A DNA stretch of 64,000 nucleotides, from the NCBI RefSeq assembly GCF_011045215.1, contig NZ_CP049201.1; one strand, written 5' to 3'. Below the pieces are notes generated by a model. It did not search any database and had not been told where the DNA came from. It saw only the letters and a program-made list of their open reading frames with translations. Made by a program: the position numbers and the translations under genes. Positions 1,752 to 64,000 of this stretch are shown one piece after another. The stretch is from Escherichia coli (lineage in GTDB: Bacteria; Pseudomonadota; Gammaproteobacteria; Enterobacterales; Enterobacteriaceae). Position 1 is the first letter of the stretch, and each line of letters begins with the position of its first letter.

Positions 1752-1906
1752 AACGCATACCATTAACAATGTAAAAAACACAGCACTGAAACTGTAACCG
1801 GCCAGGCATTACAGAATGAAGAAAATAAAGTGTCCGCAACCAGATTCTTCACGAAAATTCGTCAGTGCTGATAAAGCTATGACTCATCAGTTTTACTGGA
1901 GAACGG

Positions 1907-1982
1907 TGGCGGGAATCGAACCCACATCATCAGCCTGGAAAGCTGAGGTAATAGCCATTATACGATACCCGCATACTGTGCT
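1907..1982 (-). tRNA. tRNA-Gly(UCC)-like pseudo-tRNA; acceptor 3' strand not complementary
   Basis: Minus strand reads GCGGGTATCGTATAATGGCTATTACCTCAGCTTTCCAGGCTGATGATGTGGGTTCGATTCCCGC, near-identical to E. coli glyT through D, anticodon (loop TTTCCAG) and T arms, but then continues CACCGTTCTCCA, which cannot pair with the 5' GCGGGTA. Confidence 0.4.
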
Positions 1983-7492: not shown

Positions 7493-7648
7493 TTACTCCT
7501 CAGATTCGTAAGCTGTGAAGACAGCGACCTCCGTCTGGCCGGTTCGGATTCGTACCTCGCAGAGGTCTTTCCTCATTACCAGTGCCGTCACTATGACGGT
7601 TAAACAGATGACGATCAGGGCGATTAACATCGCCTTTTGCTGCTTCAT
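7493..7648 (-). CDS. hok: Hok/Gef-family type I toxin
   Basis: MKQQKAMLIALIVICLTVIVTALVMRKDLCEVRIRTGQTEVAVFTAYESEE is near-identical to remembered HokD; AAGGAG 7 nt upstream. Confidence 0.85.
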   Translation of the reverse strand: MKQQKAMLIALIVICLTVIVTALVMRKDLCEVRIRTGQTEVAVFTAYESEE

Positions 7649-7705
7649 AGCCTGCTTCTCCTTGCCTTTCGGCACGTAAGAGGCTAACCTACGTTTGTGT
7701 AGCAT
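7493..7705 (-). CDS. mok-like overlapping reading frame
   Basis: In-frame N-terminal extension (MLHKRRLASYVPKGKEKQA) upstream of the hok ATG, as in hok/mok/sok loci. Confidence 0.45.
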   Translation of the reverse strand: MLHKRRLASYVPKGKEKQAMKQQKAMLIALIVICLTVIVTALVMRKDLCEVRIRTGQTEVAVFTAYESEE

Positions 7706-8102
7706 AGATTGGGCCTCAGATTAATGTTAAGCGTCTTGCCGGACGCGTAATGTTAACTGGGGCTTTTCTCTGTCTGCCTTACAGTGGCATGCCCGAGGCA
7801 GACAGCCTCAGGCACCCGCAACAATCTTACCGACACCGATAAGAAAACGCTATTTTTTATTGCCAGAACCTTCTGCCCAGGCTAATGTATCCGCGTCAGA
7901 ACGGCGCAATGCGCTCGCCTGAGATACGTTTACTTGTCATTGGTGGCAACAGATAACGGCAATTGTTGTTTCTGTTTGTTTCCTTCAAAAACCCCGGACC
8001 ATCAATCCGGGGTTTTTGTTTGTTATCCCCAGCGGCAAATCGAATACACCATCAGCGCCACCGCCATCGCAATTCCTGCCGTTGTGAATGCTTCAGGCCA
8101 GG

Positions 8103-47186: not shown

Positions 47187-47271
<85 letters not shown>

Positions 47272-47430
47272 TCACTTTCAAAAGTACCTGAACTCTCAAG
47301 CGAATCCGTAAATAAATATTCTGCCCAAGCGGGGAAGGACGAGAAGCTTCGACCAAGGTTCGACTCGAGCGCCAGCGAGAGAGCGTTGCCGCAGGCAACG
47401 ACCCGAAGGGCGAAGCGCGCAGCGCTGAGT

Positions 47431-47449
47431 AATCCTTCCTCCACCACCA
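47431..47449 (+). repeat. direct repeat of the tRNA-Tyr 3' end (tyrT downstream repeat unit)
   Basis: AATCCTTCCTCCACCACCA matches the tRNA 3' terminus with one mismatch; an AAGGTTCGAcTC partial copy lies at about 47357. Confidence 0.6.
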
Positions 47450-62186: not shown

Positions 62187-63287
62187 ATGTCAAATGCTCA
62201 AGAGGCGGTGAAAACCCGCCACAAGGAGACTTCGCTTATTTTCCCGGTTCTGGCGCTGGTAGTGCTGTTCCTGTGGGGAAGCAGCCAGACACTACCAGTG
62301 GTCATTGCCATCAATCTTCTTGCGCTTATTGGTATTTTAAGTAGCGCCTTTAGTGTTGTCCGTCATGCGGACGTATTAGCCCATCGCCTGGGAGAACCTT
62401 ACGGTTCGCTTATTCTTAGCCTTTCAGTGGTTATTCTTGAAGTCAGTTTGATTTCAGCTTTAATGGCAACCGGCGACGCCGCGCCAACGCTAATGCGTGA
62501 TACGCTCTATTCAATCATTATGATTGTTACCGGTGGGCTGGTTGGCTTTTCATTATTGTTGGGCGGTCGTAAGTTTGCCACCCAATATATGAATCTGTTT
62601 GGTATCAAGCAGTATTTAATTGCGCTGTTCCCCCTGGCGATAATCGTACTGGTATTTCCAATGGCTCTGCCTGCGGCGAATTTTTCAACCGGTCAGGCGT
62701 TACTGGTAGCATTAATTTCTGCGGCAATGTATGGCGTATTTTTGCTGATCCAGACCAAAACGCATCAAAGTTTGTTTGTCTACGAGCACGAAGATGACAG
62801 TGATGACGACGACCCGCACCACGGTAAACCGTCTGCCCATAGCAGCCTGTGGCATGCTATCTGGTTGATTATCCACCTGATTGCCGTTATTGCAGTCACC
62901 AAAATGAACGCCAGCCCGCTGGAGACTTTGCTCGACAGCATGAATGCCCCTGTCGCCTTTACTGGCTTCCTGGTGGCACTGTTGATTCTGTCGCCGGAAG
63001 GTTTAGGTGCATTAAAAGCAGTGTTGAACAACCAGGTCCAGCGCGCGATGAATCTGTTCTTTGGTTCAGTGTTAGCAACAATTTCGCTTACCGTACCTGT
63101 CGTCACGCTAATTGCATTTATGACGGGTAACGAATTGCAGTTTGCACTTGGTGCGCCAGAAATGGTGGTGATGGTGGCCTCTTTAGTGCTGTGCCATATC
63201 TCCTTCTCCACCGGACGTACTAACGTGCTCAATGGCGCAGCGCATCTGGCACTGTTTGCCGCCTATTTGATGACGATATTTGCCTGA
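62187..63287 (+). CDS. chaA: Na+(K+)/H+ and Ca2+/H+ antiporter ChaA
   Basis: 366-aa product from internal ATG (MSNAQEAVKTRHK); polytopic. Confidence 0.9.
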   Translation: MSNAQEAVKTRHKETSLIFPVLALVVLFLWGSSQTLPVVIAINLLALIGILSSAFSVVRHADVLAHRLGEPYGSLILSLSVVILEVSLISALMATGDAAPTLMRDTLYSIIMIVTGGLVGFSLLLGGRKFATQYMNLFGIKQYLIALFPLAIIVLVFPMALPAANFSTGQALLVALISAAMYGVFLLIQTKTHQSLFVYEHEDDSDDDDPHHGKPSAHSSLWHAIWLIIHLIAVIAVTKMNASPLETLLDSMNAPVAFTGFLVALLILSPEGLGALKAVLNNQVQRAMNLFFGSVLATISLTVPVVTLIAFMTGNELQFALGAPEMVVMVASLVLCHISFSTGRTNVLNGAAHLALFAAYLMTIFA

Positions 63288-63691
63288 CAGTTATATCTCC
63301 TCCGATGACGGAAATCGGGGGAGATAATATAAATTCCTGCTTATTGTATTTCTTCATACTACCTGGACAGGTCGTTAATCAGAATTGCGAGCCTGTACCA
63401 CAACCTGCACGAATCCACTGCAACAGCTGTTGAAAAGCCGGAATGTACTCTTCATTGCAAACATTTCAGGGATGAAGTGAAGATGAATTGAGACGTAGTA
63501 TCCACACCAAGCCGGCGTTATCCGGTGAGGCGCAATGTTGCGGGGGCTTTATCCCTGGTGGCATTGGTTGCTGGAAAGAGAAAACCCCCGCACGTTGAGA
63601 GGTAAAACCTGACAACAGAACGGGGGCTAATCTTGAAACCAGACACTTCAAGAATAGCCGCAAAATGTTGTCATTACAACAAGGCGGCTAT

Positions 63692-63799
63692 ATGACGCTC
63701 GCGCAGTTTGCCATGACTTTCTGGCACGACCTGGCGGCACCGATCCTGGCGGGAATTATTACCGCAGCGATTGTCGGCTGGTGGCGTAACCGGAAGTAA
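63692..63799 (+). CDS. ldr: Ldr-family type I toxin peptide (35 aa)
   Basis: Hand-translated MTLAQFAMTFWHDLAAPILAGIITAAIVGWWRNRK; AAGG 7 nt upstream; sits inside a long direct repeat. Confidence 0.85.
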   Translation: MTLAQFAMTFWHDLAAPILAGIITAAIVGWWRNRK

Positions 63800-63957
63800 G
63801 GTGAAAACGGGCGTCAGGCTGCCGTGATGGCAATATGCGCCCGAAACCGGCCGCAGGGGTAACAGCCTGCGGCCATTTTTGTCTTTATCACTTCCACAAG
63901 TAAATATTGGCAACCCGAGCTGGAAGCATCATCCAGAGCACTCATGAAACGACTGTA

Positions 63958-64000
63958 ACAGCTGTTGAAAAACCGGAATGCACTCTTCATTGCAAACATT
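63958..64000. repeat. start of next long-direct-repeat (LDR) unit
   Basis: ACAGCTGTTGAAAAaCCGGAATGcACTCTTCATTGCAAACATT repeats 63424-63466 with 2 mismatches at a 534-bp offset. Confidence 0.7.

What the first reader, a model, noticed from the sequence alone, without database searches (positions are those of the whole stretch)
63400..64000. ldr/rdl long direct repeat units
A 35-aa Ldr toxin ORF (63692-63799) sits in a unit whose 5' segment repeats 534 bp later at the window end. A hairpin of CCCCCG and CGGGGG stems with a T-run on the minus strand at about 63585-63650 is where the antisense Rdl RNA would be expected, opposite the ldr leader.
Basis: partly seen in the sequence, partly recalled or inferred. 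Interest (0 to 1): 0.3.

Follow-up and report, generated by a model that had tools for sequence, protein, structure and literature searches.

The report
E. coli ldr/rdl toxin-antitoxin repeat
This is an ordinary, already well-known piece of the E. coli chromosome: one copy of the "long direct repeat", which encodes a 35-amino-acid membrane toxin (Ldr) and the small antisense RNA (Rdl) that keeps it silent, followed by the first bases of the next copy.

Summary
Window 63692-63799 (+) encodes a 35-aa Ldr toxin (Pfam PF13940, 91.6 bits against a cut-off of 27) that is identical to K-12 LdrB. On the opposite strand, 63644->63579 matches the Rfam rdlD model over its full length (91.4 bits against a gathering score of 50) and is 66/66 identical to K-12 rdlB. 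The locus follows chaA, as in K-12. The window ends about 60 nt into a second unit. The repeat offset is 535 bp, not 534.

Near-identical sequence is present in 5425 of 5426 complete E. coli genomes. This is a known type I toxin-antitoxin module, so the interest is low.

I also compared 45 ldr units from Escherichia, Citrobacter, Kluyvera, Pseudocitrobacter and Salmonella:
- All keep a 35-aa toxin, and every unit scanned has a cognate Rdl above the Rfam threshold.
- All keep a transcript of about 370 nt.
- All keep a predicted long-range pairing in which the 3'UTR covers the ldr Shine-Dalgarno sequence and start codon.
- The leader ORF that ends on the ldr ATG in this window (candidate "ldrX") does not keep its reading frame across the family.
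- Its apparent conservation is explained by the Rdl promoter on the other strand.

The literature I could read calls Rdl's repression mechanism unresolved. The steps I give for it are inferences.

The parts
63406..63940 (+). LDR unit 1, the E. coli-level repeat of about 535 bp, next to chaA
   Evidence: Offset-535 self-similarity. 98.5% identical to the K-12 LDR-C unit and 97.0% to LDR-B. Annotated Ldr family in RefSeq genomes.
63472..63501 (+). Inferred ldr promoter: weak -35 ATGAAG (63472-63477), 18-nt spacer, -10 TAGTAT (63496-63501)
   Evidence: The -10 is kept as TAGAAT, TAGTAT, TAGGAT or TAATAT in all 45 units aligned, and cross-genus conservation starts here. The tool's promoter scan (9/12 threshold) found nothing. 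The TSS has not been measured.
63508..63881 (+). Inferred ldr mRNA, 374 nt (5' end +/- a few nt; 3' end at the terminator U-run)
   Evidence: Conserved block 63495-63881. The equivalent stretch is 367-379 nt in all 45 units. MFE -165.3 kcal/mol, z=-5.92.
63512..63525 (+). 5'-terminal stem-loop of the mRNA (CCGG...CCGG)
   Evidence: RNAalifold pairs 5-7/17-19, with GC->CG double changes in 4 sequences. GCCGG/CCGG is replaced by TCCCG/CGGGA in Kluyvera units.
63579..63644 (-). rdl gene: 66-nt cis-antisense antitoxin RNA (5' end 63644, 3' end 63579)
   Evidence: Rfam RF01813 91.4 bits, model positions 1-66 of 66. Identical to K-12 rdlB. Fold z=-4.48. Stem 96.9% paired in 44 homologues against 42-56% for slid controls.
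63651..63679 (-). Inferred rdl promoter on the minus strand: -35 TTGTAA (63679->63674), 17-nt spacer, -10 TATTCT (63656->63651), 7 nt before the annotated 5' end
   Evidence: Hexamers read from the sequence. In 46 units the -10 is TATTCT or TATCCT and the -35 is TTGCAA, TTGTAA, TTGTCA or TTGAAA. It scores 8/12, below the scan threshold.
63632..63652 (+). Leader hairpin CTTGAA-N9-TTCAAG in the ldr mRNA. Its 5' arm and loop are the complement of the single-stranded 5' tail of Rdl.
   Evidence: Seen in the mRNA MFE fold. A hairpin at this place folds in all 37 distinct homologous leaders, with varying stem sequence. RNAalifold pair 134/149 is GC:33, GU:7, UA:4.
63633..63695 (+). 20-codon TTG ORF whose TGA overlaps the ldr ATG (ATGA); candidate for the proposed leader ORF 'ldrX'
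   Evidence: Its start lies inside the Rdl-complementary region. The frame is not conserved: fused in frame to ldr in 31 units, ATGA overlap in 8, ending inside ldr in 7. No Pfam hit.
63681..63687 (+). ldr Shine-Dalgarno region AAGGCGG
   Evidence: Sequence. Conserved as AGGCGG or AGGATGG. Not overlapped by Rdl.
63692..63799 (+). ldr CDS: 35-aa type I toxin, identical to K-12 LdrB
   Evidence: Pfam PF13940 91.6 bits. Matches the LdrD NMR structure 5LBJ at E=1.5e-10.
63810..63841 (+). Conserved 3'UTR element predicted to pair with codons 1-3 (63694-63699), the SD (63684-63688), the leader (63667-63675) and a 5' element (63529-63534)
   Evidence: 98.2% of cells paired against 29-59% in slid controls. 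Recovered in the separate MFE fold of 37/45 homologues.
63848..63881 (+). Intrinsic terminator of the ldr mRNA (GC-rich stem plus U-run)
   Evidence: Terminator scan 63849-63874. RNAalifold stem with GC->AU changes.
63941..64000 (+). First 60 nt of LDR unit 2, cut by the window end
   Evidence: In the 100%-identical genome a second ldr CDS and a second rdlD hit follow.

Best explanation
This is the chaA-proximal unit of the E. coli long-direct-repeat array, a chromosomal type I toxin-antitoxin module.

The plus strand gives a stable mRNA of about 370 nt (inferred 63508-63881). It encodes the 35-aa, single-helix inner-membrane toxin Ldr (63692-63799). The minus strand gives the 66-nt RNA Rdl (63644->63579) from its own promoter, which lies inside the ldr leader. 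Rdl is perfectly complementary to leader positions -113 to -48 and does not touch the ldr SD or AUG, so its repression of Ldr synthesis must be indirect.

The course of events I think most likely is this:
(a) The full-length mRNA is translationally closed, because a conserved 3'UTR element pairs with the SD, the start codon and a 5' element. This resembles the fold-back inhibition of hok mRNA.
(b) Ribosome access, once the mRNA opens, depends on the upstream leader around the conserved hairpin and TTG at 63632-63652. This could be a standby site or a leader reading frame.
(c) The single-stranded 5' tail of Rdl nucleates on that hairpin and zips up a 66-bp duplex. The duplex blocks the upstream entry site and is cut by RNase III.
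(d) When the unstable Rdl falls, Ldr is made, inserts in the inner membrane, ATP drops, the nucleoid condenses and growth stops.

Shown here: the identity, the anatomy, the conservation and the predicted folds. Taken from the literature on K-12 LdrD/RdlD and LdrA: toxicity, repression by Rdl, and RNase III-dependent dsRNA. Inferred: steps (a) to (c).
For: Identity:
- Pfam Ldr_toxin 91.6 bits.
- Rfam rdlD 91.4 bits, full length.
- Peptide equals K-12 LdrB and RNA equals K-12 rdlB.
- Synteny chaA-ldr-ldr-kdsA in an identical genome, against chaA-ldrC-ldrB-ldrA-kdsA in K-12.
- Present in 5425 of 5426 complete E. coli genomes.

Family-wide conservation:
- Every ldr unit in the 17 loci scanned has a cognate rdlD hit above threshold: 20 of 20 units, 52-91 bits.
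- All true Ldr homologues found with a toxin-only pattern are 35 aa, except one copy cut to 30 aa by an internal stop (L037).

Anatomy:
- The Rdl hairpin has z=-4.48. It is 96.9% paired across 44 homologues against 42-56% for slid controls.
- Both promoters have conserved hexamers.

mRNA closure:
- MFE z=-5.92.
- RNAalifold long-range helices.
- 98.2% paired against 29-59% for slid controls, with 7 double-change cells that 0 of 500 shuffles reach.
- At least 20 of the 26 pairs are recovered in 37 of 45 independent single-sequence folds, with mean pair probability 0.72.

Literature:
- LdrD is toxic and RdlD counteracts it, and Rdl overlaps the 5'UTR rather than the RBS (PMC4147584).
- A dsRNA peak of about 21 nt lies in the ldrD/rdlD overlap, and both RNAs are stabilised in rnc mutants (PMC7373196).
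- LdrA causes an ATP drop within 2 min, and LdrD causes nucleoid condensation (PMC8309996).
Against: - No expression data exist for this strain. The ldr TSS and both promoters are inferred from conservation only, and the consensus promoter scan found none at its threshold.
- Both Rdl and the long-range helices are so conserved that true compensatory covariation is thin. Rdl has 2 pairs with double changes. The long-range pairing has 3 such pairs, and most of its variation is G-C/G-U wobble.
- The long-range structure was derived from the same alignment on which it was counted, which favours it over the slid controls.
- The 2021 review states that the mechanism of RdlD regulation is 'currently unknown' (PMC8309996). 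Steps (a) to (c) are therefore hypotheses.
- Single ldrD or rdlD mutants showed no difference from wild type in the rate of proton-gradient dissipation (PMC11997105).
Confidence: 0.9

Rival explanations
1. Strict hok/mok-type coupling. ldr is translated only by ribosomes that first translate a defined leader ORF, ldrX (here TTG 63633 to TGA 63695, overlapping the ldr ATG). Rdl represses solely by occluding the ldrX start.
For: - In this window the TTG ORF starts inside the Rdl-complementary region, has GGGGG 7 nt upstream, and ends in ATGA on the ldr start.
- In all 46 units the TTG frame stays open up to or past the ldr ATG.
- The model was proposed by Gerdes and Wagner and is repeated in reviews (PMC4147584, PMC8167048).
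Against: - The frame relation is not conserved. In 31 of 46 units, including K-12 ldrD, the TTG is in frame with ldr with no stop between them, which would give a 55-aa fusion rather than a separate ORF. 8 units have the ATGA overlap and 7 end inside ldr.
- The apparent peptide conservation (SRIAAxxCHxN) coincides with the Rdl -10 and -35 hexamers on the other strand.
- The TTG is part of a conserved hairpin arm.
- Two of the three frames are open here anyway, so openness does not discriminate.
- Reviews say the model is unconfirmed (PMC4147584).
Confidence: 0.2
2. Degradation only. Rdl has no effect on translation initiation. It simply creates a 66-bp duplex that RNase III cleaves, which destroys the ldr mRNA.
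For: An RNase III-dependent dsRNA of about 21 nt was captured from the ldrD/rdlD overlap, and both RNAs are slightly stabilised in rnc mutants (PMC7373196). A general statement for type I systems is given in PMC11997105.
Against: - The stabilisation in rnc mutants was only slight (PMC7373196).
- Reviews describe Rdl as inhibiting protein synthesis (PMC4147584, Table 1).
- A cut at -113..-48 leaves the SD, CDS and 3'UTR intact, so cleavage alone need not silence the message. This last point is inference.
Confidence: 0.15
3. The unit is an inactive relic: a repeat copy that is no longer expressed or no longer toxic.
For: No expression data here. The array has only two units in the identical genome against three in K-12, so copies are gained and lost.
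Against: - The ORF, SD, both promoters' hexamers, the Rdl hairpin, the 3'UTR element and the terminator are all intact.
- The peptide and Rdl are identical to K-12 LdrB and rdlB.
- The whole architecture is conserved across five genera.
Confidence: 0.03

Closest known systems
E. coli K-12 LDR-B / LDR-C (ldrB-rdlB, ldrC-rdlC) between kdsA and chaA
   Same: Same locus next to chaA and the same 535-bp tandem repeat. The peptide is identical to LdrB and Rdl is identical to rdlB. The unit is 98.5% identical to the LDR-C unit and 97.0% to LDR-B.
   Different: By position it is LDR-C, but it carries the three LdrB-type coding differences and the RdlB-type base, so it is a B/C mosaic. The 100%-identical genome has two units in the array, not three. 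This is consistent with unequal crossing-over or gene conversion between repeats.
ldrD-rdlD of E. coli K-12, the experimentally studied member (Kawano et al. 2002; Rfam RF01813; PDB 5LBJ)
   Same: 35-aa toxin with FWHDLAAP and a basic C-terminus. Rdl lies at the same leader position. The two share the mRNA length, the leader hairpin, the 3'UTR element and the terminator.
   Different: A different chromosomal site (bcsG-yhjV) and a single copy. The peptides differ at many positions (alignment). The leader TTG is in frame with ldrD, whereas here it is in the +1 frame with an ATGA overlap.
hok/mok/sok (plasmid R1 and chromosomal copies)
   Same: Works alike in outline: a stable, highly folded toxin mRNA; a short unstable cis-antisense RNA aimed at the leader upstream of the toxin SD; RNase III cleavage of the duplex; and a predicted 5'/3' fold-back that closes the full-length mRNA (PMC4147584, PMC8167048).
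   Different: Not a member. There is no Hok domain. The Rfam sok model gives only 29.3 bits against a gathering score of 59, and on the sense strand. A frame-conserved mok-like ORF is absent. Activation of ldr mRNA by 3' processing has not been shown.
Fst/RNAI-RNAII (par of pAD1), Fst/Ldr toxin superfamily
   Same: A small single-helix toxin with a charged C-terminus, and nucleoid condensation on overexpression (PMC4147584, PMC8309996).
   Different: In the Fst system the RNAs are convergent and pair at direct repeats and the terminator. The host range is Gram-positive. I ran no sequence comparison here.

Membership tests
Ldr toxin family (Pfam PF13940) | Profile match above the curated cut-off over the whole 35-aa peptide | tested here: met
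   91.6 bits against a cut-off of 27, residues 1-35 on profile positions 1-35 of 35.
Ldr toxin family (Pfam PF13940) | 35 aa, a hydrophobic helix and a basic C-terminus; related to the solved LdrD structure | tested here: met
   The sequence ends in RNRK. It matches 5LBJ chain A at E=1.5e-10 over residues 1-35. All true homologues found are 35 aa, except L037, which is cut to 30 aa by an internal stop.
Ldr toxin family (Pfam PF13940) | Toxic when overexpressed | not testable with these tools
   Known for LdrD and LdrA of K-12 (PMC4147584, PMC8309996). This peptide is identical to K-12 LdrB.
Rdl antitoxin RNA (Rfam RF01813) | Covariance-model score at or above the gathering score, full length | tested here: met
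   91.4 bits against 50, model positions 1-66 of 66, E=3.4e-19. Sequence identical to K-12 rdlB.
Rdl antitoxin RNA (Rfam RF01813) | Encoded antisense to the ldr 5'UTR, not overlapping the SD or AUG | tested here: met
   63579-63644 (-) corresponds to -113..-48 relative to ATG 63692. The spacing is the same in K-12.
Rdl antitoxin RNA (Rfam RF01813) | Own promoter and intrinsic terminator | tested here: inconclusive
   A terminator-like site was found. The promoter TTGTAA-17-TATTCT is conserved in 46 units but scores only 8/12, and the promoter scan did not report it.
Rdl antitoxin RNA (Rfam RF01813) | Transcribed, unstable, and represses Ldr synthesis | not testable with these tools
   Reported for RdlD (PMC4147584, PMC7373196). 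rdlB is annotated as a putative antisense regulatory RNA in K-12.
LDR (long direct repeat) array of E. coli | Tandem direct repeats of about 530 bp between chaA and kdsA, each with one ldr and one rdl | tested here: met
   Offset 535. chaA lies upstream. The identical genome shows chaA-ldr-ldr-kdsA with two rdlD hits. Only the first unit is complete inside the window.
hok/sok family | sok covariance model at or above its gathering score, and a Hok/Gef peptide | tested here: not met
   29.3 bits against 59, on the sense strand. The only Pfam hit of the peptide is Ldr_toxin.
hok/sok family | A conserved overlapping leader ORF (mok) that couples translation | tested here: not met
   The candidate ORF changes frame relation among 46 units: 31 fused, 8 ATGA, 7 ending internally.

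The most novel reading that the evidence does not exclude
The ldr mRNA family carries a conserved, hok-like fold-back in which a 3'UTR element (63810-63841) clamps the SD, the start codon and a 5' element. Full-length ldr mRNA would therefore be inert until it is processed or opened. The textbook 'ldrX' leader ORF would not be a conserved coding unit. Its apparent conservation would instead reflect the embedded Rdl promoter and a target hairpin. I found neither point in the literature I could search, and reviews up to 2021 call the Rdl mechanism unknown. However, Kawano 2002, Kawano 2012 and Gerdes & Wagner 2007 were not readable here and may already contain parts of this.
Probability: 0.3. 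Interest if true: 0.35.

Novelty: already known. Interest (0 to 1): 0.1.

Why it matters
For the scan, it does not matter. The finding is a correct recognition of a textbook E. coli type I toxin-antitoxin repeat that is present in essentially every E. coli genome.

The by-products have modest value for specialists. How Rdl represses a toxin whose ribosome-binding site it does not touch is still described as unknown. The cross-genus comparison makes two concrete, testable suggestions: the 3'UTR clamps the SD, and the proposed leader ORF does not keep its frame across the family. Both can be settled with a handful of reporter constructs.

Tried and rejected
- The repeat finder did not report the 535-bp repeat, so I verified it with a script.
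I replaced it with a degenerate DNA pattern for FWHDLAAP. That returned 4 chance matches (L020, L023, L029, L045) and one probable contaminant contig (L047), all set aside.
- The sigma-70 scan found no promoters in 63250-64000. I proposed promoters from conservation instead.
- I first took the +1-frame TTG ORF that ends in ATGA to be the conserved ldrX. I rejected that when K-12 ldrD and most other units showed a different frame relation.
- I considered the fact that this ORF is never closed before the ATG as evidence of selection. I rejected it as non-discriminating, because two of the three frames are open in the leader and only about 5 codons follow the indel site.
- Covariation support for the Rdl hairpin is weak because the stem hardly varies. 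I therefore do not claim covariation for it, only conservation.
- Kawano 2012 (RNA Biol) and Fozo 2008 (MMBR) were not held in the library, so the published ldrX coordinates and the mapped TSS could not be checked.
- I assumed the window was collinear with strain OkiPb01695 at its far end. That proved wrong.

Full report
**Observation**

The region 63400-64000 was read directly. The ORF ATG 63692 to TAA 63799 gives MTLAQFAMTFWHDLAAPILAGIITAAIVGWWRNRK, 35 aa. The last 49 nt of the window (63952-64000) match 63417-63465 at 46/49 positions. With the last 60 nt as query, offset 535 gives 52/60 matches and the next-best position 27/60. The repeat finder did not list this pair. CCCCCG (63585-63590) and CGGGGG (63621-63626) flank an inner stem, and an A-run at 63580-63584 is the U-tail of a minus-strand hairpin.

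**Identity**

- The peptide matches Pfam Ldr_toxin end to end, 91.6 bits against a cut-off of 27. It also matches the solved LdrD structure 5LBJ at E=1.5e-10.
- Rfam rdlD (RF01813) matches 63579-63644 on the minus strand over all 66 model positions: 91.4 bits, gathering score 50, E=3.4e-19 (repeated on the whole window).
- This RNA folds at -26.7 kcal/mol, z=-4.48.
- The upstream gene is the antiporter chaA.
- A 711-nt query is 100% identical to E. coli OkiPb01695. It matches 5425 of 5426 complete E. coli genomes, with a median of 4 places per genome.
- In OkiPb01695 the order is chaA-ldr-ldr-kdsA. In K-12 it is chaA-ldrC/rdlC-ldrB/rdlB-ldrA/rdlA-kdsA.
- The window's peptide equals K-12 LdrB and its Rdl equals rdlB (66/66). 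Over the whole unit with its flank it is closest to LDR-C: 98.5%, against 97.0% to LDR-B. It is therefore a B/C mosaic in a two-unit array, as expected from recombination between tandem repeats.

Its own refutation criterion, no Rdl covariance-model hit, is not met.

**A wider set**

The toxin was too short for the search for related loci. I therefore scanned one genome per species with a degenerate DNA pattern for the peptide motif FWHDLAAP, which does not depend on Rdl.

- Forty loci from Escherichia, Citrobacter, Kluyvera, Pseudocitrobacter and Salmonella enterica subsp. arizonae and diarizonae carry an Ldr gene that starts MT (MP in the probable contaminant contig L047). All are exactly 35 aa, except one copy cut to 30 aa by an internal stop.
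- Four hits were chance matches.
- In the 17 loci scanned with Rfam, all 20 ldr units have an rdlD hit above the gathering score on the opposite strand.
- Cross-genus conservation starts sharply at about 63495 and ends at the terminator U-run at 63881.
- The equivalent stretch is 367-379 nt in all 45 units.

**Anatomy inferred from conservation**

- A -10 hexamer at 63496-63501 (TAGTAT here; TAGAAT, TAGGAT or TAATAT elsewhere) is kept in all units. A weak -35 lies 18 nt upstream. This places the ldr 5' end near 63508.
- A 5' stem-loop follows, with compensatory changes.
- Rdl's annotated 5' end at 63644 is preceded on the minus strand by TATTCT (63656->63651) and, after 17 nt, by TTGTAA (63679->63674). 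Both are conserved in 46 units. At 8/12 they fall under the threshold of the promoter scan, which found nothing.
- A hairpin CTTGAA-N9-TTCAAG (63632-63652) straddles the Rdl start. An equivalent hairpin folds in all 37 distinct leaders. Its 5' arm and loop are the complement of Rdl's single-stranded 5' tail.
- The ldr mRNA ends in a GC-rich terminator at 63849-63874.

**Mechanism**

Rdl covers -113..-48 and does not reach the SD (63681-63687) or the AUG. Reviews describe the action as inhibition of protein synthesis by a mechanism that is unconfirmed or "currently unknown". They cite a proposed leader ORF, ldrX, coupled to ldr by analogy with mok/hok (PMC4147584, PMC8167048, PMC8309996). RNase III-dependent dsRNA from the ldrD/rdlD overlap has been captured in vivo (PMC7373196).

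In this window a 20-codon TTG ORF (63633-63695) starts in the Rdl target and ends in ATGA on the ldr start, which fits the ldrX idea. Across 46 units, however, the same TTG is in frame with ldr and unbroken in 31, including K-12 ldrD. It has the ATGA overlap in 8 and ends inside ldr in 7. The apparent amino-acid conservation of this stretch coincides with the Rdl -10 and -35 hexamers on the other strand and with the hairpin arm. So a defined ldrX peptide is not conserved. Translation or ribosome loading through this region remains possible.

The predicted full-length mRNA folds far better than shuffles (z=-5.92). In that fold a 3'UTR element (63810-63841) pairs with:

- codons 1-3 (63694-63699);
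- the SD (63684-63688);
- the leader (63667-63675);
- a 5' element (63529-63534).

RNAalifold on 45 units gives the same four helices. Counted on the alignment they are 98.2% paired against 29-59% when slid. Most variation is wobble-compatible, and 7 double-change cells occur, a number that 0 of 500 shuffles reach. Single-sequence folding recovers at least 20 of the 26 pairs in 37 of 45 units.

There are caveats. The structure was derived from the same alignment on which it was counted, the helices vary little, and I could not check whether the older primary papers already describe it.

I therefore favour the following course of events, all of it inference:

- The message is closed when full length.
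- Ribosome entry depends on the upstream leader.
- Rdl occludes that leader, starting from its 5' tail on the leader hairpin.
- RNase III cuts the resulting duplex.

**Comparison and novelty**

This is a member of the Ldr/Rdl family by every feature that could be tested. It works like hok/sok but is not a member of that family. The sok model scores 29.3 bits against a gathering score of 59, and on the sense strand. There is no Hok domain and no frame-conserved mok-like ORF. The finding is already known, so interest is low.

**In passing**

- The window also holds a hok/sok-type module at 7493-7817.
- A phage-type tRNA-Gly next to a methyltransferase lies near 1900.
- A tRNA-Tyr with one RtT element lies at 47187-47449.

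Noticed in passing
window 7493-7817 (-): A second type I toxin-antitoxin module. Rfam sok scores 109.2 bits at 7643-7817 (-). A Hok-like peptide (MKQQKAMLIALIVICLTVIVTALVMRKDLCEVRIRTGQTEVAVFTAYESEE) sits inside a 70-aa mok-like ORF at 7493-7705 (-). Homologous places are annotated hokD. The surrounding 1.4 kb is present at 80% coverage or more in only 18 of 5426 E. coli genomes, so it lies in a variable, probably prophage-derived segment.
   Followed up: partly
window 1902-1972 (-): A weak Rfam tRNA hit (36.4 bits) that ARAGORN does not call. Homologous DNA in other E. coli is annotated tRNA-Gly next to a DNA methyltransferase and occurs in only 431 of 5426 genomes. It is probably a phage-borne tRNA in a prophage remnant at the start of the window.
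   Followed up: partly
window 47187-47449 (+): A tRNA-Tyr (anticodon GTA) followed by one RtT element (Rfam 129 bits), that is, the tyrT/rtT locus. Salmonella diarizonae locus L046 likewise has a tRNA and two RtT elements about 8 kb from its ldr unit, so the neighbourhood is syntenic.
   Followed up: no
window 63542-63694 (+): The Rfam 'sok' model (RF01794, 157 positions, ending in AUG) gives a sub-threshold hit (29.3 bits, E=0.001) on the sense strand of the ldr leader. This suggests the model partly describes the toxin-mRNA leader, and that the hok and ldr leaders have a loosely similar layout. It is not evidence of membership.
   Followed up: no
window 63406-64000; L001 4100-5130; L002 2080-3530: Array copy number and mosaicism. 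The genome identical to the window has two LDR units between chaA and kdsA, and K-12 has three. The window unit sits where LDR-C sits but has the LdrB peptide and the RdlB RNA. Across complete E. coli genomes there are 1-12 matching places, median 4, and 29 of the places are on records labelled as plasmids.
   Followed up: partly
L001 4823-5046 (unit 2 of the identical genome, just beyond the window end): In the second unit a 1-nt insertion in the loop of the leader hairpin puts the leader TTG in frame with ldr. The potential product is a 55-aa extended protein, instead of the ATGA-overlapping ORF of unit 1. The two neighbouring units of one array thus differ in the 'ldrX' frame.
   Followed up: yes
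L047 (NZ_JABWSY010000055.1, 503-bp contig of 'Bacillus sp. EB106-08-02-XG196'): A very short, low-coverage contig in a Bacillus assembly encodes an E. coli LdrD-like peptide (MPFAELGMAFWHDLAAPVIAGILASMIVNWLNKRK). This is most likely contaminating enterobacterial DNA rather than a Gram-positive Ldr.
   Followed up: no
L043 6600-8000 (Kluyvera sichuanensis); L007, L039 (Escherichia): Tandem ldr/rdl arrays also occur outside the chaA-kdsA site and with LdrD-type toxins: three units about 500-530 bp apart in Kluyvera, and two units 484 bp apart in Escherichia L007 and L039. Tandem amplification is therefore a recurring property of the module, not of one locus.
   Followed up: no
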